Source of the DNA: an uncultured Candidatus Saccharibacteria bacterium | GTDB lineage: Bacteria > Patescibacteriota > WWE3 > UBA101185 > UBA10185 | Direction: 5' to 3' | Length of the DNA stretch: 64,000 nt | Assembly (NCBI GenBank): GCA_964490125.1 | Contig: CAZBAJ010000005.1 | Span: 4,631 to 68,630 of the forward strand | Shown here: in pieces, positions 5,043 through 48,329 of the stretch | How positions within the stretch are numbered: position 1 is the first letter of the stretch | How the letters are laid out: the number at the start of each line of letters is the position of its first letter | Translations under genes and position numbers: made by a program | Notes under the pieces: generated by a model | What the model saw: only the letters and a program-made list of their open reading frames with translations | What the model was told of the DNA's origin: nothing | Databases searched by the model: none

Positions 5043-5058
5043 TTTATACCCCATAGTA

Positions 5059-10774: not shown

Positions 10775-10978
10775 GTTTTTGTTTTATCACAAACTATTTT
10801 ATTTGTCTAATTGTCAAGTACGGTGTAGTCACTAATCGTCATGCTCTCTGATTTTCCTTATTATGGGCAAGGAAGCTGGTGTAACGGGCATAGTCGCCAA
10901 ATGGTTTCTTATCATAGCCATCATTTTTTTATTGTCTTTAATTGGTCTTTTCATGACTCACTTTTACCACAAGGTTTG

Positions 10979-11752
10979 TCATTTGCCCAAGATATCTTTG
11001 GCGTAACTTATGGCGTTTTTTGCCATGGGTAGGGTGATATTTTGATACTGGGCGGGAATTTCGTTAACGCTATAGCCTGCTTCAACAAGCCCAAGAATAT
11101 CTGCCACCGTGATACGAGTGCCTTTAATGACGGGTTTCCCAAACCTAATGTTTTGATCCACGCCCACATACTTATTTTGTAGTTTTTGCATAGACGGATT
11201 ATACACCGTTTTCCTAATTTCTTGGACTTTTTTCTGATCCACGGCCAGAGGATTGCCCAGGTAATATTTTGGTTTGTAGTATAGCAGATCCGCTAAGGCC
11301 CTCTCCGGGGTAGCTTGTGAAAATGTCTCCTTGTCCTCTATACCCGCTCTATTTACTAGATACTCTGGTTTTAATTGTTTGCATCTCACTATTTTGTCGC
11401 CATATTTTATGGTTTGACTTTTTTGACCAGCCAAAACAACGGGAGTTATATTTTGGAACATTGCACCCGCCTTGCTTAGTACCGTTTCCAGCGTAATGTA
11501 CGACAGGGGACCGCACAGGGTGCAGGCAACCTCGTAGTCACTAAGCCTGCTAAGCGGGAGTTTGGAGTACACGCCTTTTTTTACTCTATATAACTTGGCG
11601 TCTGCTACATAGCGCTTAATGGTAGTCCAAAGGGTATTTTTGTCTTGAATGTCCCATAAAACCCCTAGATCTTTAGTGGTAAAGATATTTTTAGGCGTTT
11701 CTATTAGTGTTTGTAGTTTTTTAGTCCTGTACATTATTGTACAGGATAACAC
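10979..11752 (-). CDS. AbiEi-like N-terminal domain fused to a C-terminal DUF433 domain
   Basis: The N-terminus (TKKLQTLIETPKNIFTTKDLGVLWDIQDKNTLWTTIKRYVADAKLYRVKKGVY) resembles the AbiEi antitoxin wHTH. The C-terminus (GKPVIKGTRITVADILGLVEAGYSVNEIPAQY) is a DUF433 signature. Confidence 0.5.
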   Translation of the reverse strand: MLSCTIMYRTKKLQTLIETPKNIFTTKDLGVLWDIQDKNTLWTTIKRYVADAKLYRVKKGVYSKLPLSRLSDYEVACTLCGPLSYITLETVLSKAGAMFQNITPVVLAGQKSQTIKYGDKIVRCKQLKPEYLVNRAGIEDKETFSQATPERALADLLYYKPKYYLGNPLAVDQKKVQEIRKTVYNPSMQKLQNKYVGVDQNIRFGKPVIKGTRITVADILGLVEAGYSVNEIPAQYQNITLPMAKNAISYAKDILGK

Positions 11753-23351: not shown

Positions 23352-23413
23352 TTGACAACATGGTAATTGCCAGTTATCATAAAACCATGGTTTATGGTAA
23401 TTACCAACTATCA
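23352..23413 (+). promoter_or_regulatory. promoter TTGACA-N17-TATCAT overlapped by two 20-bp direct repeats (putative operator)
   Basis: TTGACA at 23352-23357, TATCAT at 23375-23380. Repeats atggtaattgccagttatca (23360-23379) and atggtaattaccaactatca (23394-23413) with period 34. Sits in the divergent intergenic region. Confidence 0.4.
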
Positions 23414-23446
23414 CTCCACAATCCGTGGTGGGAGGAGGGCTATAAT

Positions 23447-24742
23447 ATGGACGCCGACTCCAAACTAGTGGAGCTTTCTGCCTTAAAATACCGTTACATT
23501 CACCCCTTAATAAATGAATATCCCGTGGAAAAAGATGTGGTTTTTACCATGCGCGGTCCAAGGAGGGTGGGCAAGACCACGCTTATTAAGTTAATTATCA
23601 AAAAACTACTTGACCAAAAAATTCCCAGAAAAAACCTTTTTTATCTTCCGTGCGACAGGATTGAGCATTTTAACGAGCTTTATACTGCAGTAAGGAGTTA
23701 TGTCGATAAACAAAGAGTTTCCGCTAGCGGTAGAATTTACATCTTTTTAGATGAAGTGTCATATGTAAAAGAATGGCAAAGAGCTGTAAAATCGCTGTGG
23801 GATGACGACGTGCTTAAAAACTGCACATTGCTAATAACAGGGTCAAACGCCGTCGACTTAAAAGTGTCGTCCGAAAGATTACCCGGTAGAACTGGCAAAT
23901 ATTTTAATAGCGAAAAACTATTTTTACCGTTAGATTTTTTTGACTTCTACAAACTACTAAACCCCGATTGGACGGGGGAGTTTGAACCCAAAAATCTACC
24001 CAAGTTTAAAAAATATTTGGACGACTTTATGTTGGTAGGGGGTTTTCCACAGGTTATTAACGAGTACTACACCAATGGCTTTATAGCGTCGGAAACCTAT
24101 GAAACTTATACCAAGTGGGTTGACGGGGATGTTCACAAAAACGGTAAGTCTACGGAAAGTGCCTACCGACTGTTTAAAGAGTTGGACAAAACGCTTACTA
24201 GTAGGGTAAGTTACACTAATTTAGCTAAGGACACGCTTTTTGCGTCCCAACAGAGTGTGCAGGATTATGTGGAGCTTTTTGACCTCACGTATGTTTGTTT
24301 TAAGTGCGATTACTTGCTATTAGAGTCCAGGAAAGTCGATCCTAAAAAAAATAAAAAGTTTTACTTTGTCGACCCGTTTGTTCATAACGCGCTTTTGGCT
24401 AAGCAGGATGGATTTTTGGACGACGCTTTTAATTATTCACGCAAGCTGTTGGCAGGGGAGAATGTTGCTTCCACTAGGTTTGAGGAGGTGGTGGGAAGTT
24501 TGTTAAAAAGACGGTTTACACGCATTGATTACGGTATGTTAGCGGGCGACGCGTTGGAAGTAGATTTTGTGGGCTTTGACCACGGTAAATATAGCCTTTT
24601 TGAATGTAAATACGGGAAAACAGGTTTGCAAAACTACTTAAACTATAAAAAACTATTTGACTCTTTTGGGGGTTTAAAGATTTTGGTTCCCGATATTGCC
24701 GAGGAAGGGGAAACCTCGTTTTTTGACCTTTTTAAGGGTTGA
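23447..24742 (+). CDS. AAA-family ATPase (AAA_14 + DUF4143-type)
   Basis: Start at ATG 23447, 9 nt after GGAGGAG. Walker A (GPRRVGKTTLIKLI). Walker B (IFLDEVSY). C-terminal DUF4143-like region. Confidence 0.65.
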   Translation: MDADSKLVELSALKYRYIHPLINEYPVEKDVVFTMRGPRRVGKTTLIKLIIKKLLDQKIPRKNLFYLPCDRIEHFNELYTAVRSYVDKQRVSASGRIYIFLDEVSYVKEWQRAVKSLWDDDVLKNCTLLITGSNAVDLKVSSERLPGRTGKYFNSEKLFLPLDFFDFYKLLNPDWTGEFEPKNLPKFKKYLDDFMLVGGFPQVINEYYTNGFIASETYETYTKWVDGDVHKNGKSTESAYRLFKELDKTLTSRVSYTNLAKDTLFASQQSVQDYVELFDLTYVCFKCDYLLLESRKVDPKKNKKFYFVDPFVHNALLAKQDGFLDDAFNYSRKLLAGENVASTRFEEVVGSLLKRRFTRIDYGMLAGDALEVDFVGFDHGKYSLFECKYGKTGLQNYLNYKKLFDSFGGLKILVPDIAEEGETSFFDLFKG

Positions 24743-35086: not shown

Positions 35087-35926
35087 ATGTTTGAAGAGCA
35101 GTCGCAAAAATTGTATGACGGATTGACTGATAGGATAAATAACCTATTTGCTAAGAAGCCATTTTTTTCTACTTTGTTGTTATGTGTTTTAGTAAGTTTG
35201 GTGGTTTTTGTAGTAAGCATGGACTATAAAAGTGGCGAGGCAAAAGTGGAGGTTACTATTGCAGACAATGGAGTTAAACAGACTTTGAGCGACGCTACAA
35301 AAGAACCTAAGGAATTTAAGGTTGACTTGGCTGGGGCGGTTAAAAAACCCGGAGTCTATGTTTTGCCTTTGGGAAGTAGGTTGAGCGACCTTATTACCTT
35401 GGGTGGCGGTTTTACCAGCGATGTTTCTGCGTTGTGGGTCAGTAAAAATCTTAATTTGTCACAAAATGTCAGTGACGGGGAAAAAGTCTACATTCCTTTT
35501 GAGTGGGATTTGGCGACTTTGGAGGGGAGTGGGGAGGTGCGGGCTTTAAGTTTGGGCGTTATCCCTGGAACAAAACAGTCAAGTTTGGTGGCAACGGAAT
35601 TAAAAAAGATGGAGGTTTCTGCCGGCACAACTACCACTTCCGGTACAGGTCCATCTAATACTTCAACCGGAAGTACCGGTAATCAGGATGTCCCGGAATC
35701 TTCGTCGTCCAGCTCACCCAGTCCCACACCTACCCCCTCAACAAATAATTTAGTAAATGTAAATACCGCTACAAGTATAGAGATAGACGCCCTGCCGGGA
35801 ATTGGACCTGCTTATGCGGGTAGGATTATAGAAAATCGACCTTACGCGTCCATAGAAGAATTTAAGGAAAAAAGCGGACTTTCTGTAAATTTGGCGACGA
35901 GTTTGCAGGACTTAATTAGCTTTTGA
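35087..35926 (+). CDS. comEA: ComEA-like DNA receptor (helix-hairpin-helix)
   Basis: N-terminal TM. SLBB-like region. Ser/Thr/Pro linker. C-terminal tandem HhH (VNVNTATSIEIDALPGIGPAYAGRIIENRPY). Confidence 0.8.
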   Translation: MFEEQSQKLYDGLTDRINNLFAKKPFFSTLLLCVLVSLVVFVVSMDYKSGEAKVEVTIADNGVKQTLSDATKEPKEFKVDLAGAVKKPGVYVLPLGSRLSDLITLGGGFTSDVSALWVSKNLNLSQNVSDGEKVYIPFEWDLATLEGSGEVRALSLGVIPGTKQSSLVATELKKMEVSAGTTTTSGTGPSNTSTGSTGNQDVPESSSSSSPSPTPTPSTNNLVNVNTATSIEIDALPGIGPAYAGRIIENRPYASIEEFKEKSGLSVNLATSLQDLISF

Positions 35927-37152
35927 CACGCATGCGTAGTAGCGGATTAGTTATTTTGATTTTCTTGGCGGTGTGGCGGGTGGGCGGGTATGTTTCTTGG
36001 AAACCGGCGGTTTTTGCGGAAAAGCTAAGTAACGAGAAGAATAAGAGTTATCAGGCGCCGGTTGACGAATGTGCTACGGGTGACGACACATTGAGTATAG
36101 GTTCTGTTAGAGATGTTGGCGGAATTGAACACAAGGTGGAAAACGACATGATTGCGAGGTTGGGCGGGCTGGGCAGGGGAATTTACTGTGGGTTTAAAAA
36201 GTGGTCGATGGAATTTAAGCAACAAGCATCATATAAAATTCAAGAAGTCCTGCCCAGCCCGCACAGTGAGTTGGTTATGGGCATGGTTTTAGGCGAGGAT
36301 CAGTTCAAACTCGTCCCCACATATAACGACATCTTGAAGAAAGTTGGATTGGTGCATGTGGTTGTGGTTTCCGGCTACAATATTAGTCTGGTATTTACTT
36401 TATTAATGCGGATTTTAGGTTCGCAATACAAGGTAAAAAATCTAGTCATTGGTTTATTTATTACGCTAGTTTATGCGGGTATTTCTGGTTTTGGTATTCC
36501 TGCAGTACGCGCTTGGATCATGGGATCTATTGCGGTTATCTTTAAGTTTTATGGTCGACCAGCGGAGGGTATAGAGGTTCTTATATTTTCAGCTATAGTC
36601 ATACTTATATTAGCACCAAGTCAGTTGTTTTCTGTGAGTTTTATGCTAAGTTTTTTGGCTACACTGGGCGTAATGGTTGTCCCGGAGGCATTAAAAGGTT
36701 TTGTAGGTAAGTTGGGGGTAAAGACCGTACCTACTTATTTGGAAGATTTTAATACTAGTTTAAGCGCCCAGTTAATGGTAAATCCCGTTTTGTCGTACTA
36801 TTTTGGCACTATCAGTTTAGTGTCATTAATAGCAAACCCTTTGGTTTTGTGGGTTGTACCCATCTGTACCGTTTTGGGAGGTTTGCTGGTGGCGGTAGCC
36901 TTTATCAGTCCCCTACTTTCTCAAATTTTGGCATTTATGATGTTTCCTTTTTTGGACTTTTTTGTCAGCTTTTCCGAATTTTTTGCTAAATTTGCTACCG
37001 CTTCTGTTAGTTTGCGGTTTAGTGTTTACGCCGTGTTTGTCTATTACCTTGGACTGTTTATTGCTATAAGGCATTTTACTGTTAAAAACGCTAGGACAGT
37101 TAAACCGATTCTGCCGACTACTCGTGTGATTAGTAAAGGTAGTAGGGCATGA
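35923..37152 (+). CDS. comEC: ComEC/Rec2 DNA-uptake channel, membrane (competence) domain
   Basis: DUF4131-like N-terminus and a polytopic Competence domain (VHVVVVSGYNISLVFTLL...). ATGA overlaps at both ends. Confidence 0.8.
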   Translation: MTRMRSSGLVILIFLAVWRVGGYVSWKPAVFAEKLSNEKNKSYQAPVDECATGDDTLSIGSVRDVGGIEHKVENDMIARLGGLGRGIYCGFKKWSMEFKQQASYKIQEVLPSPHSELVMGMVLGEDQFKLVPTYNDILKKVGLVHVVVVSGYNISLVFTLLMRILGSQYKVKNLVIGLFITLVYAGISGFGIPAVRAWIMGSIAVIFKFYGRPAEGIEVLIFSAIVILILAPSQLFSVSFMLSFLATLGVMVVPEALKGFVGKLGVKTVPTYLEDFNTSLSAQLMVNPVLSYYFGTISLVSLIANPLVLWVVPICTVLGGLLVAVAFISPLLSQILAFMMFPFLDFFVSFSEFFAKFATASVSLRFSVYAVFVYYLGLFIAIRHFTVKNARTVKPILPTTRVISKGSRA

Positions 37153-39813: not shown

Positions 39814-40878
39814 ATGGGTTTATTTAGAGTTACCAGATCAAAAAAAAGCTTTAGTTTAATTAGGGTGATTTCTGCCGTTTTGGTATTAGGACTTTTGGTT
39901 GTAGCGGTAGCTGAATCGGCAAAGTACCTTTATGTTGCGCGCCTTCCCAAAAGCGTTAGCACAAAAATAGAGCCTTCTGTTAACAAACTTGCTGCGGTTT
40001 TGGGTGTGGCAAAAACTTCTTTAGCGTCGTTGGACAAGTTAGGGAGCGTTCTGGTTGACGATGAGGAGAGAAGCACGGCGACCAGCATTAAGTCCAGCGA
40101 TTCAACTCGTGATCAAGGTGAAAATAGAGATCAACCTGCCCAAAAAGACCAGCCGATTCAAAAAGCCCAAATTGTGGTTAAATTAGCGCTACTTTCCGAC
40201 TCCCATAATGATTTGGAGTATTTGGAGAAGGCCTTAGTTAAGGCAAAGGATTACGGTGTCAATGAGGTAATTTTTTTGGGCGACTACACGGACTGGGGCG
40301 AGCTTGCCAACTTGCAAAAGTCTAAAGAGGTTATGGATACCTCGCAACTTCCTTATGTTTCTTTACCGGGCGACCATGATTTAGGTGAGACGAGAGATGA
40401 GTCCAATTTTGTTAAAGTTTTTGGTGATACTTACGGTACTTTGAAGTTTGACAATATAAAACTCGAGTATTTTGACAATAGTAAAAACTTTACTAGTATC
40501 AGCGATCCCGCTATCGCATGGTTTGCCAAAGAGATAAAAGACGCTAATTTTCTATTTCTTTCACAACCTTTAGCGACAGCAAGTATGTCCAGAGTTATGG
40601 GGATTGTGGACGGCGTTAGAGACGAGGAGGTTTTTGCCCAGAACAAAGAGCTTTTATCAGAGGTTCGCAACAGCAATGTTAGAGTGATAGTTTCGGGGGA
40701 TTTACATCAATTTTCACAATATAAGGACCCCGTAAAGGATGGTTTGTGGCATTATTCTGTGGGTGCGGTGTTAAAGTCACAAAGTTTAGAAAAACTTAAC
40801 CTCCAGTCGCCCCGCTTTGCCGTTTTGACAATAAGAAAAGATTTATCGTACGAAATTGTAGATGTTCCTATTGATTAG
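39814..40878 (+). CDS. membrane-anchored calcineurin-like metallophosphoesterase
   Basis: N-terminal TM. Phosphoesterase motifs (LSDSHND, GDYTDWGE, LPGDHDL, SGDLH). Confidence 0.7.
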   Translation: MGLFRVTRSKKSFSLIRVISAVLVLGLLVVAVAESAKYLYVARLPKSVSTKIEPSVNKLAAVLGVAKTSLASLDKLGSVLVDDEERSTATSIKSSDSTRDQGENRDQPAQKDQPIQKAQIVVKLALLSDSHNDLEYLEKALVKAKDYGVNEVIFLGDYTDWGELANLQKSKEVMDTSQLPYVSLPGDHDLGETRDESNFVKVFGDTYGTLKFDNIKLEYFDNSKNFTSISDPAIAWFAKEIKDANFLFLSQPLATASMSRVMGIVDGVRDEEVFAQNKELLSEVRNSNVRVIVSGDLHQFSQYKDPVKDGLWHYSVGAVLKSQSLEKLNLQSPRFAVLTIRKDLSYEIVDVPID

Positions 40879-41995
40879 TTGTGGATGGAGTGTTAACATT
40901 TCACACATGGATTTTCCACTTTTTAATTCAAAAGCTTTAGGTAATGGCAAATCCTACGATTTAAATGACCCGGTCGGTCGCAGAGAGTATTTTGAAGACA
41001 AGCTAGGCAAAAAACTAGAAGATATTAAGGAGTTTTTAGACAATAATACCTTTGTGGGTTTTATGCTGGCAAAAAAGAGTGCGGGTAAAGGTACTTACTC
41101 AAAGATGTTTGCAGAGATAGTCGGAGAAAGTAGAGTTGCGCACATCTCGGTGGGGGATATTGTGCGACAAGTTCATAAGACTGTCGAATCTGATCCAGTT
41201 GAAAAAGACAAGCTTATTCAATATTTGACATCTAATTACAGAGGTTTTATTACAGTAGAAGATTGCGTAGATGCTTTGGTCGGTAGATCTCAAGAAAAAC
41301 TTATACCGACAGAATTTATCCTTGCCTTAGTTAAAAGAGAGATTGAAAAAGTAGGAAGAAAAGCGATATTTATTGACGGTTTTCCTAGAACACTCGACCA
41401 AATCTCTTACTCCCTGTATTTTAGGTCTTTAATTAATTTACGGGACGATCCTGATTTTTTTGTTATGATCGACATTCCGGAAACAATTATCGACGAGCGA
41501 ATGAAGTACAGAGTAGTTTGTCCTCTTTGCAACACATCCAGAAACCTTAAATTATTGCCTACAAAATTCGTCGAATACGATAAGGATCAAAATAAATTTC
41601 ACTTACTTTGCGATAATAAAATTTGCCAGGGTTATTCCAGAACAAGACTTGTAGCAAAAGAAGGTGATGATAAAGGTATAGAGCCGATAAGAGATAGGCT
41701 GGCGTTGGATGGAAAACTTATGGAGATGGCTATGACTTTGCAGGGAATTCCAAGAATTATGGTGAGGAATGCTGTTCCGGTTGACAAGGTCAGCCAATAC
41801 ACAGAACCTTATGAAATTACCCCAGCTTTTAACTATGAGTACGATGAGGCGAAAGGGGAAGTGCTTACAAAACAGGAACCGTGGGTTGTAAAGGACGACG
41901 CTGGAAACGATTGCAACAGCTTACTGGCCCCCCCAGCACTGCTTTCTATGATGTCGCAATTACACGATGTTTTAATCGGTGATTCAAAGAATTAA
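40862..41995 (+). CDS. adenylate-kinase-like nucleoside monophosphate kinase family protein (start uncertain)
   Basis: P-loop-like LAKKSAGKGTYSKMFAEI and a Cys-containing LID-like segment (VCPLCNTSRN...LLCDNKICQG). Longer than canonical Adk, so the true start may be the ATG at 40907. Confidence 0.4.
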   Translation: MFLLISCGWSVNISHMDFPLFNSKALGNGKSYDLNDPVGRREYFEDKLGKKLEDIKEFLDNNTFVGFMLAKKSAGKGTYSKMFAEIVGESRVAHISVGDIVRQVHKTVESDPVEKDKLIQYLTSNYRGFITVEDCVDALVGRSQEKLIPTEFILALVKREIEKVGRKAIFIDGFPRTLDQISYSLYFRSLINLRDDPDFFVMIDIPETIIDERMKYRVVCPLCNTSRNLKLLPTKFVEYDKDQNKFHLLCDNKICQGYSRTRLVAKEGDDKGIEPIRDRLALDGKLMEMAMTLQGIPRIMVRNAVPVDKVSQYTEPYEITPAFNYEYDEAKGEVLTKQEPWVVKDDAGNDCNSLLAPPALLSMMSQLHDVLIGDSKN

Positions 41996-42056
41996 CAAGT
42001 CAAATTGAGCAAAAGTCCTCTTGCAATCTGTACATGTTTATGCTAATTTTATGTAC

Positions 42057-42431
42057 ATGAAATCCGTCAGGGAACATAAAAGAAACACGGTGGAAGTACT
42101 GACAGAGATGGATCAAGGGCAGGTATTAAACATCAGTCAAGCCCGTCCTATGTTGAGTTCTATTATTTCCAATGTTTCCAATCGGGCGTACCTTGTGGGC
42201 AAAAGGGGAGTACCGAGCATAATTATTATGGACTACTCCCTTGCTAAAAGGTTTGTGCCGGAAAGTTTTATCCAACAGGGCTTTTCCCTTAAACCCGCTG
42301 TAAAAGCTGGCAAAAGATTCGTCAACTTTGTTGAAGATCTACATACTAGGGGAGTTTTAACTACGGGCAAGCATTTAAGAAAAAACATCAGTTTAGCCCA
42401 AAATGTCGACAGGATTGTATATGGCATCTAG
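42057..42431 (+). CDS. Phd/YefM-family antitoxin
   Basis: LNISQARPMLSSIISNVSNRAYLVGKRGVPSIIIMDY matches the Phd/YefM fold. Start chosen at an internal ATG. The stop overlaps the downstream vapC start by 11 nt. Confidence 0.55.
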   Translation: MKSVREHKRNTVEVLTEMDQGQVLNISQARPMLSSIISNVSNRAYLVGKRGVPSIIIMDYSLAKRFVPESFIQQGFSLKPAVKAGKRFVNFVEDLHTRGVLTTGKHLRKNISLAQNVDRIVYGI

Positions 42432-42849
42432 CGGTTTGCTCTTAGATTCCAGTTTTCTCGTCGCCCTTTTTAACAAAGAATATTCTTTACACGAGGATGC
42501 TTTGAAGGCAAGTCATAAATTTTTGACAGAGAGTGACAAGTTATTCATCACAAACCTTATTTTTGTCGAATTTGCTACTGTACTTTCGATGCGGTTGGGT
42601 AAGAGTGGCTTAGAGGAGGCTTTGGGTCAGGATCTTTTATTAAAAGGTGGGTTAGTGGAGCTGTTTGTTAATCAGGAGCTTTACGACGAAGTCAAAAAGA
42701 CTTATTTAAAGGATGTTTTGCATAAGGATATAAGTTTTGTCGACTTAAGTACAGCCCTAGTGGCTAAGAAAATGTCGCTAGATGTAGTGTCGTTTGACAA
42801 GCATTTTAAGGCTTTAGGCAAAAGATACGGATTTAAAGTTTTTCCATAA
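42421..42849 (+). CDS. vapC: PIN-domain toxin VapC
   Basis: LLDSSFLVALF N-terminal motif, conserved acidic residues, SFVD. Confidence 0.7.
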   Translation: MASSGLLLDSSFLVALFNKEYSLHEDALKASHKFLTESDKLFITNLIFVEFATVLSMRLGKSGLEEALGQDLLLKGGLVELFVNQELYDEVKKTYLKDVLHKDISFVDLSTALVAKKMSLDVVSFDKHFKALGKRYGFKVFP

Positions 42850-42879
42850 ATAGTGTAGGATACACATATTCGACAAAGT

Positions 42880-42969
42880 GGAGGGGTCGCATAGTGGCCT
42901 AGTGCGATGGTCCTGAACACCATTTCCGTCGCAAGGCGGACGAGGGTTCGAATCCCTCCCCCTCCGCCA
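42880..42969 (+). tRNA. tRNA-Ser (anticodon TGA), type II with long variable arm, CCA encoded
   Basis: Acceptor ggagggg/cccctcc with discriminator G73. 3-bp D stem. Anticodon stem atggt/accat with loop ccTGAac, showing an unusual C33. Long variable arm. T-arm gaggg-ttcgaat-ccctc. Confidence 0.75.
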
Positions 42970-43080
42970 GTGTCAAAACGCTATCAACAATCGTCCAAAT
43001 TTTTAGGTAACGCAATTATTAGACTTTAAAGTCTTACACTTTGCGTTGTAAATTCTTGAAGGTCGTGGTATTATGTCGAT

Positions 43081-44505
43081 ATGAAGAAGTTTTACGACCG
43101 TGAAGAAGAACTTAGGGCTTTAAGCAGTCTAGTCAAGGCCTCCAAAAAGTCAGCCAGATTTACTTATATTATTGGGCAAAGACGCGTAGGTAAAACCTTT
43201 TTAATAAGGCAGGCTTATTTAGAGAATGTGGAAACTGCAAAAAGCACAATCTATTTTTTTGTGGGACGAAAGACGGAGGAAGTCTTAGCAAAGGAATTTT
43301 CCAACATAGTAGCGGGTAAGCTTGGTTACGCCCCAAATTTTACTTCTGTAACAGATCTAATTCTATTTCTATTCGAGTCGTCCAAAAAGCAACCCCTTAC
43401 AGTTGTTTTTGACGAGTTCCAAAATTTTTATTACTCCGCCCCCGAAGTATTCTCCGGCTTACAGAAAATATGGGATGAGAATAAGCATCAAGCCAAAATA
43501 AACCTTATTTGTGTGGGTTCGGTGTACAGTTTTATGGAAAAGATCTTTGCTTCCCGCCATGAGCCACTTTTTGGTCGAGTGACTGGGAAAATAGTACTCA
43601 AACCCTTAAAAATACCTGTAATAAAAACCATGCTTAAAGATAAAAAAGCTTACTCGTTTAATTATTTGTTGGAGTTGTACGCCATGTTTAACGGTGTCGC
43701 AAAATACTACGAATACTTGGAGGAATATAAACTTTTTGGAAAAACTCCCCAAGAAATCTTTGAGCGATTGTTTCTAGAGACCGACGCCCCACTAGCTACT
43801 GAGGGAAAAGATTTGCTTATGGAGGAGTTTGGCGCAGATTATCAGACATTTTTTTCTATTCTTGAGGTTGTCGCCCATGAAAAAAGCATCTCTAACCAGA
43901 AAATCGCTAACGCCGTAGGTTTAAATTTAAACAATGCCAGCACCTATCTTTCTAGGTTGGAGAAGCGCTATAACCTTATTAAACGGGATATTCCGTTGCT
44001 AGTGCCTGCAAGTAGGAAGGGACTTTACAAAATTAAAGACAAATTTTTAAAGCTTTGGTTCACTGTAATTTTTTCTAACCTATCGCTTGTGGAATCGGGT
44101 CAAAAAGAAGCCATGTCAAAAATATTTAAGGATAGATTTCAAAACATTAAGGGTGTGGCGTTTGAGGATTTTGTCGCCGAGCTTTTAGCCTCCAATTACG
44201 AGCAATTTCCATATTCAAAATGGGGGAAGTATTGGGACAAAAATGTGGAGATTGACCTGTTAGGTTTTGCTCCGGAAAAAGATGAGATGCTGTTGTGTGA
44301 GTGTAAGTCAAAATTGTCGGGTGATTATAAGGCTTTAGTGGGGGAGCTGGCAAGAAAAAAAGAAGTTCTCCAAAAAGTATTTGAGGGAAAGAAGGTACTA
44401 CTTGCTTTGTTTGTTGCCGACGATGTTAAAAAATCTGCTTTGGAGTTTTTTGACGCCAATAATGTTACAGTATACGACAGCAGGGCATTAGACAAGATCA
44501 TCTAA
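43081..44505 (+). CDS. ATPase of the archaeal-ATPase/DUF234 family
   Basis: Walker A (IGQRRVGKTFLI), Walker B (VVFDEFQ) and a C-terminal DUF234-like region. Confidence 0.65.
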   Translation: MKKFYDREEELRALSSLVKASKKSARFTYIIGQRRVGKTFLIRQAYLENVETAKSTIYFFVGRKTEEVLAKEFSNIVAGKLGYAPNFTSVTDLILFLFESSKKQPLTVVFDEFQNFYYSAPEVFSGLQKIWDENKHQAKINLICVGSVYSFMEKIFASRHEPLFGRVTGKIVLKPLKIPVIKTMLKDKKAYSFNYLLELYAMFNGVAKYYEYLEEYKLFGKTPQEIFERLFLETDAPLATEGKDLLMEEFGADYQTFFSILEVVAHEKSISNQKIANAVGLNLNNASTYLSRLEKRYNLIKRDIPLLVPASRKGLYKIKDKFLKLWFTVIFSNLSLVESGQKEAMSKIFKDRFQNIKGVAFEDFVAELLASNYEQFPYSKWGKYWDKNVEIDLLGFAPEKDEMLLCECKSKLSGDYKALVGELARKKEVLQKVFEGKKVLLALFVADDVKKSALEFFDANNVTVYDSRALDKII

Positions 44506-44546
44506 CACTAGAATCTGACATTAGAAAGCCTGCAATATGTTAATTA

Positions 44547-44621
44547 TGGTACTCCCGGCGGGAATTGAACCCGCACCTTTGGCTTCGGAAGCCAAAATTC
44601 TATCCGTTGAACTACGGGAGC
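44547..44621 (-). tRNA. tRNA-Arg (anticodon CCG), CCA encoded
   Basis: The minus-strand cloverleaf has acceptor gctcccg/cgggagt with G1:U72. Anticodon loop ttCCGaa. T-arm gcggg-ttcaatt-cccgc. Discriminator A. Confidence 0.8.
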
Positions 44622-44660
44622 TTGCTTCCGCCCATTATACCATCCGCAAAGTATAGCAAT

Positions 44661-44689
44661 TTGACATTTAGTATTACCAAATGTAGTAT
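44661..44689 (+). promoter_or_regulatory. promoter TTGACA-N17-TAGTAT directing a leaderless antitoxin mRNA
   Basis: TTGACA at 44661-44666 and TAGTAT at 44684-44689. The ATG at 44700 lies about 10 nt downstream. The promoter overlaps the tRNA-Arg gene on the opposite strand. Confidence 0.4.
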
Positions 44690-44699
44690 GGTAATACTT

Positions 44700-44957
44700 A
44701 TGGATCAATTACTCTCGACTATAACAGCAAAGGGGCAAATAACCATTCCTAAAATATTTAGGGATTCTCTGGCTCTTTCGGAGTCGGACAAGGTGGTTTT
44801 TACCCAACTTGATGAAAAAACACTGGCGGTTAAATCTGCCAGCAGGGATTTTATGGTTCATAGCGGTTCCGTAAAAGCAAAAAAGCCGTTAGAAAGTTCT
44901 AATAAAGTCCAACAAAAAGTTTATAGAAAAATGGCGCGGGAATGGACTACTTTTTAG
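44700..44957 (+). CDS. AbrB/MazE (SpoVT-AbrB) family antitoxin
   Basis: MDQLLSTITAKGQITIPKIFRDSLALSESDKVVF swapped-hairpin motif. The track ORF N-terminus overlaps the tRNA and is not coding. Confidence 0.6.
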   Translation: MDQLLSTITAKGQITIPKIFRDSLALSESDKVVFTQLDEKTLAVKSASRDFMVHSGSVKAKKPLESSNKVQQKVYRKMAREWTTF

Positions 44958-45346
44958 ACACCAACATTTTCCTTAGGTTTTTTGTGGACGAGCCAAAAGC
45001 CCAGCATCAAAAGTGTCAACAACTATTTGAAAAGATTTCTAAAGGCGAGATAACTGCTGTTACTAGTCCGCTAGCCATTTTTGAAGTTATCTGGACGCTC
45101 CAAAGCTACTACGAACTGCCAAAACAAGACATTATCGACAAAGTCTTTGATGTCATTGTTTGTCCATATATTTTAATTGACGGAAAAGAACTACTGCTGA
45201 CCAGTTTGCTGATGTGGCAAGTGAAAAACATTAAGTTTAACGATATTTATCTATACAACTATCTAAAAGCCAAGGGTTTAGGTAAAATATACTCTTACGA
45301 CAAGGATTTTAATAAATTTGCCGACATTTTAAGGCTGGAACCTTAG
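44942..45346 (+). CDS. vapC: PIN-domain toxin VapC
   Basis: FLDTNIFL motif, SYDKDF. Overlaps the antitoxin stop. Confidence 0.75.
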   Translation: MDYFLDTNIFLRFFVDEPKAQHQKCQQLFEKISKGEITAVTSPLAIFEVIWTLQSYYELPKQDIIDKVFDVIVCPYILIDGKELLLTSLLMWQVKNIKFNDIYLYNYLKAKGLGKIYSYDKDFNKFADILRLEP

Positions 45347-45354
45347 GAGTTTTT

Positions 45355-47241
45355 ATGAAGCTTGGATTAATTAACAAAAAGGCTAATACCATTTCCCTCG
45401 GGTCTAATTCCGATTACGACCACAAGAAAGTGAGCCTCAACGAATTTTGGAACATCTCCAAATGGATTTTTACCTATCTTGTTAAGATGAACAAAAGGTT
45501 CACTCTAGGTTACCTCATTACCGCGCTACTGGACACGGTTTGGAGTATTGCTAATGCTTATGTGCTTTCAGGCATCTTGAATATGGTGATCGATTTGGCA
45601 CAACGGGGGGGAACTCGATTGAACGATTTGTATCCGTATTTCGGTTTGTTACTGGGCTTGAATGTGGTGTTTTCTGCCATTAGCTTTGTTAAATGGTATT
45701 ACAGAAGAGGTTTAGCCCTTATTTCTTATTCAGAGGTTTCTAGAAGTTACTATAAGCGACTGGAATACTTAGGGATCCAGACCCTGGAGGGTCCTGAGAT
45801 GAATAACAAGCTTACTCGTGCGCAGGATGGGATTAACCAGGTATCCGATTACTTTGAGCAGACTGTGGAATTTCTCAAGAGTTTCTTTACACTCGTTATC
45901 TCTATTGCCATTGTTTTTAAGGTTGCGCCTCTAGTCATGTTGGTTATGTTTCTTTTATCTATCCCCAGATTTCTTGTTGATAGGCGTTTCAGATCCCTGG
46001 TCTGGTCTTGGGGTTACATAAACACAGAGGAGCGACGAAAGGCGGGATCAAGTTCCGGATCACTTTCCAGCACAATTAGTCTGTTGGAAATTTCAGTAAT
46101 CAAAGCCCAAAGTTTTCTGGATAACAAATTTACCGCATTCTATAACTATTTCAACGCTAGGGCATTACAGATTCGCAAATCATGGTTTACATCGTCGTTC
46201 TTTTTCGAAGTAATTTCAAATTCCGCTTCGTACTTTGGGTACCTTTATCTTTTTGCAAAGTACCTAGGTAAGCTAATTAATGTCGGACAAGTTTTCTTTT
46301 ATATTCGGATGATAGACATGTTTCAACGATCCTTAACTCAAACTTTCGATTGGATGAACAACCTTTTTGAGTATTCCATTCGATTTAGGGAGCTTTATAT
46401 GGTCTTTGTTACGAAACCGGCTTTTGAAGACGGAGCCGTGGAATTTCCTAAACTAGCTAAAGGGCCGGAAATTGAAGTCAAAAACATGTCGTTTAAATAC
46501 CCAAACACTGACAAAATGATTTTTAACAACCTGTCGCTCAAAATTAAAAGTGGTGAAAAAGTTGCCATAGTAGGACATAACGGGGCAGGGAAGACTACTT
46601 TGGTAAAGCTTTTATGTCGAATATATAAACCCACAAGTGGGGAGATTGTCGTAAATGGTCGAAATTTGACAGACTTAAAGATTGATAGTTGGTACCAAAA
46701 CATGGGTGTGTTGTTTCAGGAGTTTAACACTTATCCGCAACTTACTGTAAGGGAGAATATTACCATAGGAAATCCCAACGAACCGATGGATGAGGTGGCT
46801 TTGCACTTGGCAGCTCAGAGTGCCGATGCGTCATCCTTTATTGACGAATTTCCTGCCAAATACGACCAAATCTTAAGTGAAAAATTTAAAGGGGGAATTA
46901 GGCCGTCTACCGGACAATGGCAAAAATTGGCTATCGCGCGCTTTTTCTATCGCAACGCTCCGCTGGTAATTTTTGACGAGCCCACCGCGTCCATTGACGC
47001 CGTGTCGGAATACAACATTTTTAACAAAATTTACGACTTTTTTAAGGAGAAGACAGTAATTATAATATCGCATCGCTTTTCCACCGTCCGCAATGCTGAC
47101 AGAATTATAGTTTTGGACCACGGGGAGATTATTGAAGAAGGCACCCACGACTTTTTAATGAGTAACAACGGTTATTATGCCAAAGCATTTAATTTGCAGG
47201 CAAAAGGCTACGGGGCTAGTGATGACGGGGGTAGGGAGTAA
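45355..47241 (+). CDS. ABC transporter, fused permease/ATP-binding exporter
   Basis: Six N-terminal TM helices. Walker A (GHNGAGKTTLVKLL). Signature (STGQWQKLAIAR). Walker B (VIFDEPT). H-loop. Confidence 0.85.
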   Translation: MKLGLINKKANTISLGSNSDYDHKKVSLNEFWNISKWIFTYLVKMNKRFTLGYLITALLDTVWSIANAYVLSGILNMVIDLAQRGGTRLNDLYPYFGLLLGLNVVFSAISFVKWYYRRGLALISYSEVSRSYYKRLEYLGIQTLEGPEMNNKLTRAQDGINQVSDYFEQTVEFLKSFFTLVISIAIVFKVAPLVMLVMFLLSIPRFLVDRRFRSLVWSWGYINTEERRKAGSSSGSLSSTISLLEISVIKAQSFLDNKFTAFYNYFNARALQIRKSWFTSSFFFEVISNSASYFGYLYLFAKYLGKLINVGQVFFYIRMIDMFQRSLTQTFDWMNNLFEYSIRFRELYMVFVTKPAFEDGAVEFPKLAKGPEIEVKNMSFKYPNTDKMIFNNLSLKIKSGEKVAIVGHNGAGKTTLVKLLCRIYKPTSGEIVVNGRNLTDLKIDSWYQNMGVLFQEFNTYPQLTVRENITIGNPNEPMDEVALHLAAQSADASSFIDEFPAKYDQILSEKFKGGIRPSTGQWQKLAIARFFYRNAPLVIFDEPTASIDAVSEYNIFNKIYDFFKEKTVIIISHRFSTVRNADRIIVLDHGEIIEEGTHDFLMSNNGYYAKAFNLQAKGYGASDDGGRE

Positions 47242-47271
47242 CTACACCGTAATTGTAACAAAAAAATTAAT

Positions 47272-47299
47272 TTGACAAAATACATTTAATGTATATAAT
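47272..47299 (+). promoter_or_regulatory. promoter TTGACA-N16-TATAAT directing a leaderless RHH-antitoxin mRNA
   Basis: TTGACA at 47272-47277 and TATAAT at 47294-47299. ATG at 47310. Confidence 0.45.
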
Positions 47300-47309
47300 G
47301 CAATACATT

Positions 47310-47549
47310 ATGTCCAACTACACAACAGTAACATTAAGAAAAGAGACTTATAATAAACTTTCCGATTTTACCAGGGAGGTTAGAGCAACAAATTCCGAGG
47401 CTGTAGACAGGTTACTGACTTTTTATTGGAAAGACAGAAAGGAGAAGTCTGACAAAGCCTTGGAGAAGTTTAGAGAAGGCATAAGGGGTTTAGGGATTAA
47501 AAAAAAGCTCAAGAGTTCCGAACTAAATGTTATTAATGCGTATTTATGA
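47310..47549 (+). CDS. ribbon-helix-helix-type antitoxin (VapB-like)
   Basis: MSNYTTVTLRKETYNKLSDF has an N-terminal beta-strand plus helices typical of RHH/CopG. ATGA overlap with the downstream PIN gene. Confidence 0.5.
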   Translation: MSNYTTVTLRKETYNKLSDFTREVRATNSEAVDRLLTFYWKDRKEKSDKALEKFREGIRGLGIKKKLKSSELNVINAYL

Positions 47550-48001
47550 TTTACCTTTTAGATACAAGTGTGTTGGTGAATCTTGTTTTTGCTGACATTA
47601 TAGCCTTAACCGAAGAAGAAAAAGAATCAGTTAGGTTTGCTAATTCACTAGAACCTAGAGAGAGGTGGGTAGCCGATTTCGTTTTGACGGAATTTGCTTT
47701 AGTAGCTCAAAAAGTTTTGCCGTCAAAATTTTTGCTAACCAAAGATCCCGTTGTTTTAAACACATACCTAAGTAGGGAGCTGGAATTTTTTGACGAGTTT
47801 TCTACGATTTTTACTTCTTATGTCCCGGATCATCTGGAGGTCGAGGTTGCTTTGAAAGATTATGTAGAGTACTGGAAGAAGAACAAGTCCAATAGAGCGC
47901 TGTCATTTGTCGACTTGTTTTTACTTTCACTTGCTAAAAAACACGGCGTCGGTTTGCTTACCGTAGACAGAAAGATGTCGACTTATATAAAGCCAAATTA
48001 A
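47546..48001 (+). CDS. vapC: PIN-domain toxin VapC
   Basis: LLDTSVLV, SFVDLF, TVDRK motifs. Confidence 0.7.
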   Translation: MIYLLDTSVLVNLVFADIIALTEEEKESVRFANSLEPRERWVADFVLTEFALVAQKVLPSKFLLTKDPVVLNTYLSRELEFFDEFSTIFTSYVPDHLEVEVALKDYVEYWKKNKSNRALSFVDLFLLSLAKKHGVGLLTVDRKMSTYIKPN

Positions 48002-48087
48002 GTGATTTATCTGTAACGCTGTGTCCCCTACATGATAGAATATCAGGGTTTGACGATGGGAAAACTGGTACCAGAGGTAGAGTTTTG

Positions 48088-48163
48088 GCTCCCATAGCTC
48101 AAGCGGATAGAGCGCGGGTTTCCTAAACCTGATATTCCAGTTCGAGTCTGGGTGGGGGCACCA
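48088..48163 (+). tRNA. tRNA-Arg (anticodon CCT), CCA encoded
   Basis: Acceptor gctccca/tgggggc with G3:U70. D-arm gctc/gagc. Anticodon stem cgggt/acctg with loop ttCCTaa. T-arm tccag-ttcgagt-ctggg. Confidence 0.8.
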
Positions 48164-48252
48164 ATTTGATAGTTGAAGTGCGTGAAGCAAGCGATCCGAA
48201 TCTACGAGAAAGTACTGCGAAGTGTACTTTCGAGTGATTCGGGAGCGAGTAA

Positions 48253-48329
48253 CGGGGTGTGGCGCAATTGGCTAGCGCGCTGCTTTCGGGTAGCAGAGGT
48301 TCGCGGTTCAAGTCCGCGCACCCCGACCA
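48253..48329 (+). tRNA. tRNA-Pro (anticodon CGG), CCA encoded
   Basis: Acceptor cggggtg/caccccg with the C1:G72 typical of bacterial tRNA-Pro. Anticodon loop ttCGGgt with G37. T-arm cgcgg-ttcaagt-ccgcg. The track ORF 48173-48391 is this tRNA, not a protein. Confidence 0.85.

What the first reader, a model, noticed from the sequence alone, without database searches (positions are those of the whole stretch)
42021..48329. tRNA-punctuated accessory island packed with three VapC modules of different antitoxin classes, an orphan DUF234 ATPase and an ABC exporter
Within 6.3 kb the window has Phd-VapC (42057-42849), tRNA-Ser, a DUF234/archaeal-type ATPase (43081-44505), tRNA-Arg on the opposite strand, MazE/AbrB-VapC (44700-45346), an ABC exporter (45355-47241), RHH-VapC (47310-48001), then tRNA-Arg and tRNA-Pro. 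Three PIN toxins are paired with three structurally different antitoxins (Phd, AbrB, RHH). The antitoxin promoters are leaderless and one overlaps a tRNA gene. The tRNA genes are classic integration anchors although no integrase is present. A fourth VapC with a 50-aa antitoxin, an orphan HicB and an AbiEi-DUF433 fusion lie at 10040-11752. The lone ATPases (here and at 23447-24742, the latter with a repeat-bearing operator) are typical of defence islands whose partners are uncharacterised.
Basis: partly seen in the sequence, partly recalled or inferred. Interest (0 to 1): 0.5.

Follow-up and report, generated by a model that had tools for sequence, protein, structure and literature searches.

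The report
Toxin-antitoxin cassettes nested in tRNA cluster
In an ultrasmall (Patescibacteria/CPR) bacterium, a conserved cluster of four tRNA genes and an ABC exporter gene has each of its four intergenic gaps filled by a self-contained selfish or defence cassette, and related genomes show these cassettes being deleted or swapped one at a time, so this is a long-lived cassette nest and not a mobile island inserted at a tRNA gene.

Summary
There are four tRNA genes, three PIN/VapC toxins with intact catalytic residues, each preceded by a small antitoxin gene, a DUF234 ATPase and an ABC exporter.

The island interpretation is only half right. Relatives (L004/L087, L085, L088, L089) share a compact backbone: ADK-like, tRNA-Ser, tRNA-Arg(CCG), ABC exporter, tRNA-Arg(CCU), tRNA-Pro, DivIVA-like. 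In L088 it spans about 2.3 kb with no cassette. So the tRNAs and the exporter are core.

The three toxin-antitoxin (TA) pairs and the ATPase occupy four separate gaps and vary independently. Deletion scars in L085, L004 and L164 show the three TA cassettes being lost. L164 and L178 carry orthologous cassettes in the same gaps. A near-identical strain (L179) carries a swapped core of the first TA pair.

I found no integrase, no att repeat and no compositional deviation.

The ATPase is a PDC-S27-type candidate defence protein (AAA+ ATPase, winged helix, PD-(D/E)xK nuclease) whose antiviral role is untested.

These are ordinary kinds of elements in an instructive arrangement. Interest is modest.

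The parts
42021..42059 (+). Promoter/operator of the first TA pair: -35 TTGCAA (42021-42026), 17 nt, -10 TAATTT (42044-42049). Two copies of the palindromic box TGTACATG lie at 42029-36 and 42052-59. The second box covers the start codon, which implies a leaderless transcript.
   Evidence: Sequence read. The -35 and first box are conserved in L084, L085, L086 and L004 even where the genes are deleted.
42057..42431 (+). Phd/YefM-like antitoxin (124 aa), gap 1. Residues 1-32 are identical in strain L179. The rest is swapped there.
   Evidence: PF02604 is below threshold in all three family members. Only 3 homologues were found in 5.8 billion proteins. Allele swap shown.
42403..42849 (+). PIN/VapC toxin 1 (148 aa), overlapping the antitoxin gene by 29 nt.
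   Evidence: PIN 8e-11. D15/E56/D114/D132 are invariant. A pseudogene remnant is present in L085.
42880..42969 (+). tRNA-Ser(UGA), core backbone.
   Evidence: Same position in L004, L005, L085, L088, L089, L164 and L179.
43020..43080 (+). Conserved ~40-nt element (43020-43059) followed by the ATPase promoter: -35 TTGTAA (43046-43051), 17 nt, TG-extended -10 TATTAT (43069-43074). The ATG lies 6 nt after the -10 box.
   Evidence: The element is conserved in L164 and kept in L085, where the ATPase is absent (z=8.2).
43081..44505 (+). Single-gene AAA+ ATPase, winged helix and DUF234 (PD-(D/E)xK) protein of PDC-S27 type, gap 2.
   Evidence: Pfam. PADLOC PDC-S27 3.8e-57. Walker A, Walker B and ExD...ExK are conserved in 27 homologues. 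A 74% orthologue lies in the same gap in L164.
44547..44621 (-). tRNA-Arg(CCG), core backbone, convergent with the ATPase gene.
44661..44698 (+). Promoter/operator of the second TA pair: -35 TTGACA (44661-66), 17 nt, -10 TAGTAT (44684-89). The inverted repeat AGTATTACC / GGTAATACT flanks the -10 box.
   Evidence: (I2). Nearly identical in L178.
44700..44957 (+). AbrB/MazE-fold antitoxin (85 aa), gap 3.
   Evidence: MazE_antitoxin 1e-7. AbrB 2e-9. 68% orthologue in L178 and a C-terminal remnant in L164.
44942..45346 (+). PIN/VapC toxin 2 (134 aa), overlapping the antitoxin gene by 16 nt.
   Evidence: PIN 9e-12. 79% orthologue in L178. Only about the first 30 nt survive in L164.
45355..47241 (+). 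ABC exporter half-transporter (628 aa), core backbone. Here it starts 9 nt after the PIN2 stop, has an AGGAG Shine-Dalgarno sequence and no promoter of its own, so it is probably co-transcribed with AbrB-PIN2.
   Evidence: ABC_tran 2e-34. MsbA-like 6e-70, below the curated cut-off. Conserved in place in L004, L085, L088, L089 and L178. TA-less relatives carry CTGACA-N17-TATTAT directly upstream.
47272..47309 (+). Promoter/operator of the third TA pair: TTGACA (47272-77), 16 nt, TATAAT (47294-99). Half-sites ATACATT / AATGTAT / ATACATT surround the -10 box. The ATG lies 10 nt after the -10 box.
   Evidence: 12/12 consensus match. Sequence. Conserved in L164 and L178 while the upstream DNA has diverged.
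47310..47549 (+). Probable ribbon-helix-helix antitoxin (79 aa), gap 4. A near-orphan family.
   Evidence: Weak VAPB_antitox and RHH_3 hits. Only 6 hits at E<1e-3 among 1.84 billion representatives. Orthologues in L164 (67%) and L178 (75%). C-terminal remnant in L004.
47546..48001 (+). PIN/VapC toxin 3 (151 aa). An ATGA start/stop overlap joins it to the antitoxin gene.
   Evidence: PIN 2e-8. Catalytic residues invariant. Orthologues in L164 (48%) and L178 (56%).
48088..48163 (+). tRNA-Arg(CCU), core backbone. The gene occurs in two forms among relatives.
48253..48329 (+). tRNA-Pro(CGG), core backbone.

Best explanation
**What it is.** The segment is a conserved chromosomal tRNA-gene cluster plus an ABC exporter gene in a Patescibacteria (CPR) bacterium. 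The tRNAs are Ser-UGA, Arg-CCG, Arg-CCU and Pro-CGG. Each of the four intergenic gaps holds an autonomous cassette with its own sigma-70-type promoter.

**The TA cassettes.** Three cassettes are VapBC-type type II toxin-antitoxin pairs.
- Each has a small DNA-binding antitoxin. One has the AbrB fold, one is probably Phd/YefM and one is probably RHH.
- The antitoxin gene overlaps a PIN ribonuclease gene, which suggests translational coupling.
- By analogy with characterised VapBC systems, the antitoxin-toxin complex represses its own promoter through the palindromes at the -35 and -10 boxes. The freed toxin cleaves tRNA or rRNA and arrests growth.

**The fourth cassette.** It is a single-gene AAA+ ATPase, winged helix and PD-(D/E)xK nuclease of the PDC-S27 candidate-defence type. 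It is inferred to use ATP-dependent sensing or remodelling to license nucleic-acid cleavage.

**History.** The cassettes were not delivered together by an integrase at a tRNA att site.
- They are old residents of this clade and are inherited vertically.
- They are lost independently by internal deletions.
- At least one was rewritten by homologous recombination that swapped the toxin core together with the toxin-binding half of its antitoxin.
- One cassette (AbrB-PIN2) has taken over transcription of the core ABC exporter gene.

**Shown.** Gene content, active-site integrity, promoter and operator conservation, the conserved backbone, independent presence or absence, deletion scars and the allele swap.

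**Inferred.** Toxicity and neutralisation, autoregulation, leaderless translation, the defence role of the ATPase, and co-transcription with the exporter.
For: **Backbone.** The order ADK-like, tRNA-Ser, tRNA-Arg(CCG,-), ABC, tRNA-Arg(CCU), tRNA-Pro, DivIVA-like(-) is shared by L004/L087, L085, L088 and L089. It spans 2.3 kb and is cassette-free in L088.

**Independent variation.**
- Gap 1 holds Phd-PIN1 in L084, L086 and L179. It holds a pseudogene in L085, where the promoter is kept, about 525 bp are deleted and there is a frameshift (z=42). A weaker remnant is present in L004 (z=4).
- Gap 2 holds the ATPase in L164 at 74% identity.
- Gap 3 holds AbrB-PIN2 in L178. In L164 a scar keeps the AbrB C-terminal half and the first ~30 nt of PIN2, and the deletion also removed the ABC gene.
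- Gap 4 holds RHH-PIN3 in L164 and L178. L004 keeps only the C-terminal half of RHH (z=17). L089 has an unrelated HTH_17 ORF there.

**Allele swap.** L179 is 97-100% identical in the flanks but only ~45% identical over window 42150-42740. The L085 remnant is 69% identical to the L179 allele and 35% identical to the window allele.

**No island signatures.** No integrase, no att-like repeat and no compositional deviation.

**Function-related sequence.** PIN acidic residues are invariant. ATPase and nuclease motifs are invariant or nearly so. Operators are conserved across lineages. PDC-S27 matches at 3.8e-57. PDC-S27 is described as an ATPase fused to a PD-(D/E)XK domain with validation pending (PMC12988326). 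DUF234 is listed as a PD-(D/E)XK family (PMC3424549).
Against: - No strain-level pair shows a clean gain, so for gap 2 (the ATPase) insertion in the window/L164 lineage cannot be told apart from deletion elsewhere.
- Several comparison loci are short metagenome contigs (L164, L178, L179). The L179 mosaic could in principle be an assembly chimera between co-occurring genomes.
- The species tree is not resolved. The ABC tree and per-gene identities disagree. 'Vertical inheritance plus loss' versus 'lateral exchange by recombination' therefore cannot be apportioned.
- The Phd and RHH folds are not established.
- No expression, toxicity or phage data exist.
Confidence: 0.75

Rival explanations
1. 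This is a single accessory genomic island integrated by site-specific recombination at tRNA genes, with the tRNAs as attachment anchors and the ABC exporter as cargo. The integrase has since been lost.
For: tRNA genes are classic integration sites. The TA and defence content resembles defence islands. The ATPase family occurs on some viral contigs at 32-35% identity.
Against: - All four tRNAs and the ABC gene are in the same order in cassette-free relatives.
- The variable DNA is four separate gaps that vary independently.
- There is no tRNA-derived direct repeat.
- There is no integrase between 35.0 and 55.5 kb.
- GC and GC3 equal those of the flanks.
Confidence: 0.05
2. The cassettes are recent, independent horizontal gains in the window lineage. 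Each would have been inserted or exchanged by homologous recombination after natural transformation, with the conserved tRNA genes and the ABC gene serving as homology arms. They would not be ancient residents undergoing loss.
For: - The L179 allele swap has sharp breakpoints in conserved motifs.
- L085 is the closest relative for ADK-like (85%) and ABC (74%), but not for 10 flanking genes.
- The tRNA-Arg(CCU) and tRNA-Arg(CCG) forms do not follow the ABC tree.
- L178 has the cassettes while its ABC sister L088 has none.
- ComEA and ComEC genes are present at 35087-37152.
Against: - Deletion scars in three lineages document loss, not gain.
- Cassette proteins are 48-79% identical between lineages. 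Core proteins are 46-85% identical, so no recent transfer is needed to explain the values.
- Composition is fully ameliorated.
- This rival overlaps with the main explanation. It differs in how much weight goes to gain versus loss.
Confidence: 0.15
3. The cassettes are functionally coupled to their neighbours. The VapC toxins would target the adjacent tRNAs, or the autoregulated TA promoters would drive or modulate transcription of the downstream tRNA genes and the ABC exporter. The arrangement would then be a regulatory device, not selfish DNA.
For: - All cassettes except the convergent tRNA-Arg(CCG) gene face the same way as the downstream tRNAs, and no terminator-like site lies between them.
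- PIN1 ends 30 nt before tRNA-Ser, and its 3' end stays conserved in decayed copies.
- The ABC gene has lost its own promoter behind AbrB-PIN2 in both the window and L178.
- From established knowledge, VapC toxins commonly cleave tRNAs.
Against: - Relatives keep the same tRNAs and exporter with no cassettes, and they have their own promoters.
- Cassettes decay freely.
- No known precedent links a VapC gene to the gene of its target tRNA.
- Nothing here tests cleavage specificity.
Confidence: 0.05

Closest known systems
VapBC type II toxin-antitoxin modules (PIN-domain toxin with an AbrB-, Phd/YefM- or RHH-type antitoxin)
   Same: - A two-gene operon with the antitoxin first and overlapping reading frames.
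- A PIN domain with the four conserved acidic residues.
- Palindromic operators over the promoter.
- Several paralogous modules with different antitoxin folds in one genome.
   Different: - The Phd-like and RHH-like antitoxins are near-orphan sequence families. They have 3 and 2 word-indexed homologues, and the RHH-like one has 6 HMMER hits in 1.84 billion representatives.
- The transcripts appear leaderless.
- One module sits upstream of, and probably drives, a core ABC exporter gene.
- Activity is untested.
PDC-S27 (PADLOC candidate single-gene defence system: ATPase fused to a PD-(D/E)xK domain; Pfam ATPase_2 plus DUF234)
   Same: - Full-length HMM match (3.8e-57).
- The same domain order, with intact Walker A, Walker B and ExD...ExK motifs.
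- A stand-alone gene with a patchy cross-phylum distribution.
- Homologues lie next to AbiEii, Phd antitoxin and AAA_14-DUF4143 genes.
   Different: - Here it is wedged between two tRNA genes in a reduced CPR genome.
- The family itself has no experimentally shown antiviral activity (PMC12988326).
tRNA-associated integrative genomic or defence islands
   Same: Accessory TA and defence genes lie next to tRNA genes and vary among relatives.
   Different: - There is no integrase, no att duplication and no compositional signature.
- The block is not contiguous. The tRNAs lie inside a conserved backbone and do not form island borders.
TA cassettes in chromosomal integron arrays (e.g. the Vibrio superintegron), from my own knowledge
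   Same: Many small, promoter-bearing TA cassettes are packed in one chromosomal region and vary between strains cassette by cassette.
   Different: - There is no integron integrase and there are no attC sites.
- The cassettes sit in fixed gaps between essential-type genes.
- Turnover appears to be by deletion and homologous recombination.

Membership tests
VapBC type II TA | Toxin has a PIN domain with the four conserved acidic residues | tested here: met
   Pfam PIN is above threshold for all three toxins. D15, E56, D114 and D132 are invariant in the 8 aligned PINs.
VapBC type II TA | A small antitoxin gene with a DNA-binding domain lies immediately upstream, overlapping or abutting the toxin gene | tested here: met
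   The overlaps are 29 nt, 16 nt and 4 nt (ATGA). The AbrB fold is above threshold. The Phd and RHH folds are only below threshold, and the models were uninformative.
VapBC type II TA | An autoregulatory operator (palindrome or repeat) lies in the promoter | tested here: met
   Palindromes overlap the -35 and -10 boxes of all three promoters and are conserved across lineages. Binding itself is not testable here.
VapBC type II TA | The toxin arrests growth and the cognate antitoxin neutralises it | not testable with these tools
   This needs expression assays.
tRNA-integrated genomic island | An integrase or recombinase gene lies at one end | tested here: not met
   No such family appears among the called genes from 35026 to 55549 or in the Pfam scans.
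tRNA-integrated genomic island | A direct repeat of the tRNA 3' end marks the far att site | tested here: not met
   No repeat family between 40000 and 50000 involves a tRNA.
tRNA-integrated genomic island | The block is present or absent as one unit next to an intact tRNA | tested here: not met
   Four gaps vary independently while the tRNAs and ABC gene keep their order.
tRNA-integrated genomic island | Composition differs from the host genome | tested here: not met
   Cassette GC is 0.36-0.42 and GC3 is 0.36-0.45. The flanks are 0.39-0.45 and 0.36-0.47.
PDC-S27 candidate defence ATPase-nuclease | Full-length match to the PDC-S27 models, with ATPase_2 and DUF234 domains | tested here: met
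   PDLC04985 3.8e-57 over residues 3-414. Pfam DUF234 4e-17 and ATPase_2 2e-15.
PDC-S27 candidate defence ATPase-nuclease | Intact Walker A, Walker B and PD-(D/E)xK motifs | tested here: met
   G32..K38 T39, D111 E112, E390, D392 and E407 are invariant in 27 homologues. K409 is nearly invariant.
PDC-S27 candidate defence ATPase-nuclease | Protects against phage | not testable with these tools
   Validation is pending even for the family as a whole (PMC12988326).

The most novel reading that the evidence does not exclude
The tRNA cluster may act as an integrase-free cassette-exchange locus. In these probably naturally competent, genome-reduced bacteria, the conserved tRNA genes, promoter-operators and toxin C-termini would serve as homology arms. 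Whole TA or defence cassettes, or only the matched toxin-core and antitoxin-C-terminus pair, could then be swapped between strains and species. That would maintain deep allelic classes at fixed chromosomal gaps, as seen with alleles A and B of Phd-PIN1. In effect it would be a recombination-driven hypervariable addiction and defence locus, with one cassette wired to control a core exporter.
Probability: 0.3. Interest if true: 0.55.

Novelty: new member of a known kind. Interest (0 to 1): 0.35.

Why it matters
Patescibacteria have very small genomes and have been hypothesised to lack most classical defences (PMC12455944). Here about 4 kb of a 6.3-kb stretch is spent on three TA pairs and a candidate defence nuclease, and they have been kept in the same gaps across species-level divergence. 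The locus is a compact natural example of cassette-by-cassette gain, decay and allele replacement without mobile-element machinery. It also shows that proximity to tRNA genes is not evidence of integration. The near-orphan antitoxins and the strain-level swap of the toxin core with the antitoxin's binding half would be good material for studying TA specificity and co-evolution. The practical significance is otherwise modest.

Tried and rejected
**Negative or uninformative searches.**
- I searched for att-like or tRNA-derived direct repeats between 40 and 50 kb and found none.
- Rfam found only the five tRNAs in the window.
- AlphaFold2 models of the Phd-like and RHH-like antitoxins, built from 3- and 2-sequence alignments, had pLDDT 43 and 50. 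I therefore ran no fold searches.
- Profile searches of both antitoxins and a sequence search of the ATPase against PDB sequences gave only chance-level hits.
- PADLOC has no models that hit the PIN toxins or the antitoxins.

**Tests that did not apply or did not reach significance.**
- I asked whether the ADK-like/tRNA junction is a general hot spot across Patescibacteria. The Ser/Arg/Arg/Pro arrangement exists only in the close clade (ADK-like at least 61% identical). More distant loci have a different tRNA-Pro(GGG) or none nearby, so the test does not apply.
- I looked for cassette remnants in L088 and L089, and in gaps 2 and 3 of L004 and gap 3 of L085. None were significant against shuffles.
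- I considered whether the AbrB promoter is the captured ancestral ABC promoter. The similarity is only what two sigma-70 promoters share, so I do not claim it.

**Literature.** Searches for VapC or TA systems in Patescibacteria found no paper that treats this arrangement.

Full report
**Observation**

ARAGORN and Rfam agree on four tRNA genes in the stretch. They are tRNA-Ser(UGA) at 42880-42969 (+), tRNA-Arg(CCG) at 44547-44621 (-), tRNA-Arg(CCU) at 48088-48163 (+) and tRNA-Pro(CGG) at 48253-48329 (+).

Pfam places PIN domains above threshold at 42403-42849, 44942-45346 and 47546-48001. It also finds a MazE/AbrB antitoxin at 44700-44957, an ATPase_2 plus DUF234 protein at 43081-44505, and an ABC transporter ATPase domain at 45355-47241. 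In an alignment of eight PINs from the window and its relatives, the four canonical acidic residues are the only invariant columns.

The other two antitoxin labels are weaker.
- The 124-aa protein at 42057-42431 and its two homologues each hit Phd/YefM below threshold at the same region (E=0.016, 0.035 and 1e-4).
- The 79-aa protein at 47310-47549 and its relatives give only faint VAPB_antitox or RHH_3 hits.
- Structure predictions were too poor to use (pLDDT 43 and 50), and PDB profile searches were empty.

Each cassette has a sigma-70-like promoter that ends 6-10 nt before its start codon and carries palindromes. This fits leaderless or nearly leaderless transcripts. The claim that one promoter overlaps a tRNA gene is wrong. 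Only an artefactually extended TTG ORF overlaps tRNA-Arg(CCG), and the -35 box lies 40 nt beyond the tRNA.

They are a PIN toxin, a HicB-like ORF, an AbiEi-DUF433 fusion, and an AAA_14-DUF4143 ATPase of PDC-S01 type preceded by 20-nt direct repeats.

**Organism and comparison set**

The flanking genes are ComEA, ComEC, a metallo-beta-lactamase, ArgRS, a metallophosphoesterase and an unusual 377-aa adenylate-kinase-like protein. The best matches place the window in Patescibacteria/CPR.

I used the ADK-like protein as an anchor. Scans of one genome per species and of metagenome contigs returned 160 loci. Only the closest ones (ADK-like at least 61% identical) have the same tRNA neighbourhood. 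Further relatives came from look-ups of cassette homologues: L164, L172-L179.

**The backbone is conserved**

L004/L087, L085, L088 and L089 all share one gene order. It runs ADK-like, tRNA-Ser(UGA), tRNA-Arg(CCG, minus strand), ABC exporter (52-74% identical), tRNA-Arg(CCU), tRNA-Pro(CGG), then the DivIVA-like gene on the minus strand. Further synteny continues on both sides.

In L088 this backbone spans about 2.3 kb, with gaps of 10-58 bp and no TA or ATPase gene. In the window the same stretch is 6.35 kb.

The tRNAs and the exporter are therefore core. The extra ~4 kb is four separate inserts:
- gap 1, between ADK-like and tRNA-Ser: Phd-PIN1
- gap 2, between tRNA-Ser and tRNA-Arg(CCG): the ATPase
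- gap 3, between tRNA-Arg(CCG) and the ABC gene: AbrB-PIN2
- gap 4, between the ABC gene and tRNA-Arg(CCU): RHH-PIN3

**The cassettes vary independently and leave scars**

Gap 1
- L084, L086 and L179 carry Phd-PIN1.
- L085 keeps the promoter TTGCAATCTGTACATGT. It then has a ~525-bp deletion and a frameshifted 3' half of PIN1. The local alignment scores z=42 against shuffles.
- L004 keeps promoter-like and 3'-end fragments, with weaker support (z=4).

Gap 2
- L164 carries a 74% identical ATPase directly after the 3' end of tRNA-Ser.
- L085 has no ATPase but retains the ~40 nt that lie upstream of its promoter (z=8.2).

Gap 3
- L178 carries AbrB (68%) and PIN2 (79%), followed 9 nt later by the ABC gene, as in the window.
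- L164 keeps only the C-terminal half of AbrB and the first ~30 nt of PIN2. A deletion there removed the rest of PIN2 and the entire ABC exporter up to the RHH promoter.

Gap 4
- L164 and L178 carry RHH-PIN3 (67%/48% and 75%/56% identical) with a conserved promoter and palindrome.
- L004 keeps only the C-terminal half of the RHH gene and no PIN (z=17).
- L089 has an unrelated HTH_17 plus membrane ORF there.

Orthologous cassettes thus sit in the same gaps in lineages whose core proteins are only 46-85% identical to the window's. The three TA cassettes are each seen being lost by deletion. Nothing resembles a single integration event:
- there are no tRNA-derived repeats
- there is no integrase between 35.0 and 55.5 kb
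- GC and GC3 are indistinguishable from the flanks

**Recombination**

L179 comes from a strain whose ArgRS, metallophosphoesterase and ADK-like genes, and whose tRNA-Ser region, are 97-100% identical to the window. Between window positions ~42150 and ~42740, however, identity drops abruptly to ~45%. The diverged block covers the C-terminal three-quarters of Phd and the first ~105 residues of PIN1. At protein level these are 41% and 50% identical.

The L085 pseudogene belongs to this second allele class. It is 69% identical to the L179 allele and 35% identical to the window allele. L086 belongs to the window's class. So two deep allele classes of the same cassette occupy the same gap across strains and species. 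The breakpoints fall in the most conserved motifs, VLNISQARP and ISFVDLS.

Other signs of mosaicism:
- L085 is the closest relative for ADK-like (85%) and ABC (74% against 52-55% for the others). It is not the closest for ten flanking genes.
- tRNA-Arg(CCU) exists in two very different forms. Their distribution (window, L088 and L164 against L085, L004 and L089) does not follow the ABC tree.

I treat these as evidence of homologous exchange at the locus, with two caveats. L179 is a single short-read contig, and the species tree is unresolved.

**Mechanism**

The three pairs have the anatomy of VapBC type II TA systems:
- the antitoxin gene comes first
- the reading frames overlap by 29, 16 and 4 nt
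- the PIN active sites are intact
- palindromic operators lie over the promoter elements: TGTACATG twice, AGTATTACC/GGTAATACT, and ATACATT/AATGTAT/ATACATT

These operators are conserved between lineages while neighbouring DNA has diverged.

From established knowledge of VapBC systems, I infer that the toxin-antitoxin complex represses its own promoter. Loss of the antitoxin would free a ribonuclease that cuts tRNA or rRNA.

The ATPase has invariant Walker A and Walker B motifs and an E-x-D...E-x-K nuclease motif that is invariant or nearly so. DUF234 is catalogued as a PD-(D/E)XK family (PMC3424549). The protein matches PADLOC's PDC-S27 at 3.8e-57. PDC-S27 is described as an ATPase fused to a PD-(D/E)XK domain, with antiviral validation still pending (PMC12988326).

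Its homologues are patchy across phyla. They sit beside AbiEii, Phd antitoxin and AAA_14-DUF4143 genes, not beside tRNAs. A few are on viral contigs. The most likely role is a stand-alone, ATP-gated nuclease acting in defence or abortive infection.

The ABC exporter in the window and in L178 starts 9 nt after PIN2, has an AGGAG Shine-Dalgarno sequence and has no promoter of its own. TA-less relatives have CTGACA-N17-TATTAT directly upstream of the ABC gene. The exporter is therefore probably transcribed from the autoregulated AbrB promoter. This is inferred.

**Comparison with known systems and verdict**

These are members of known kinds, namely VapBC modules and a PDC-S27-type protein. They are not a tRNA-integrated island.

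What is somewhat unusual:
- TA and defence cassettes are packed into every gap of a conserved tRNA cluster in a reduced genome.
- They persist in fixed gaps across species.
- Decay is documented cassette by cassette, and one allele swap is documented.
- Two antitoxin families are near-orphans. The Phd-like one has 3 homologues and the RHH-like one has 2 in 5.8 billion proteins. The RHH-like one has 6 HMMER hits in 1.84 billion representatives, two of them C-terminal remnants.

Interest is modest.

Noticed in passing
window 42150-42740, compared with L179 2975-3570: A near-identical strain (flanks 97-100% nt identical) carries a replaced core of the Phd-PIN1 cassette (~45% nt identity) with sharp breakpoints. 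The L085 pseudogene belongs to the same second allele class.
   Followed up: yes
window 48088-48163, and relatives L004, L085, L088, L089 and L164: tRNA-Arg(CCU) occurs in two very different forms. A 76-nt form is identical in the window, L088 and L164. A 75-nt form is found in L085, L004 and L089. The distribution does not follow the ABC-exporter tree. tRNA-Arg(CCG) is likewise unusually divergent in L085 and L089. This suggests replacement of tRNA genes by recombination.
   Followed up: partly
window 45340-45360, and L178 795-812: The core ABC exporter gene follows PIN2 after 9 nt, has an AGGAG Shine-Dalgarno sequence and lacks the CTGACA-N17-TATTAT promoter seen in TA-less relatives. It is probably transcribed from the TA promoter.
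   Followed up: partly
window 43020-43059: A ~40-nt element (AGACTTTAAAGTCTTACACTTTGCGTTGTAA) lies upstream of the ATPase promoter. It is conserved in L164 and retained in L085, which lacks the ATPase. Its function is unknown. It could be an operator, an UP element or a deletion scar.
   Followed up: partly
L004 13530-13748 (P0126), and P0127: In two lineages the C-terminal, presumably toxin-binding, half of the RHH-like antitoxin survives as an ORF with a new N-terminus and no PIN toxin. It may be an orphan anti-toxin fragment or simply decay.
   Followed up: no
L173-L177, compared with window 48164-48252: Same-species contigs from other samples (99% nt identical) have a spacer between tRNA-Arg(CCU) and tRNA-Pro that is ~76 bp longer. 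It appears to duplicate window ~48193-48249.
   Followed up: no
window 23353-23450: Upstream of the second lone ATPase (AAA_14 plus DUF4143, PDC-S01 type) lie two 20-nt direct repeats (ATGGTAATTGCCAGTTATCA and ATGGTAATTACCAACTATCA). They sit between a TTGACA box and a TATAAT box that abuts an ATG at 23448. The longer ORF starts at 23360.
   Followed up: partly
window 10631-10774 and 10832-10954 (-): Two short ORFs upstream of the fourth PIN gene end in similar sequences (PIIRKFRGHDI and PIIRKIREHDD). They look like a duplicated mini-antitoxin. Neither has a Pfam match.
   Followed up: no
window 1-1000 and 5001-6000: Two patches have much higher G+C (0.61 and 0.55 against 0.42 for the window). 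They overlap ORFs 27-1112 and 5119-6168, which have no Pfam match.
   Followed up: no
window 40862-41995: The anchor gene is an unusual 377-aa adenylate-kinase-like protein with long N- and C-terminal extensions. It is conserved across Patescibacteria at 48-87% identity and scores below the NCBIfam adk cut-offs.
   Followed up: no
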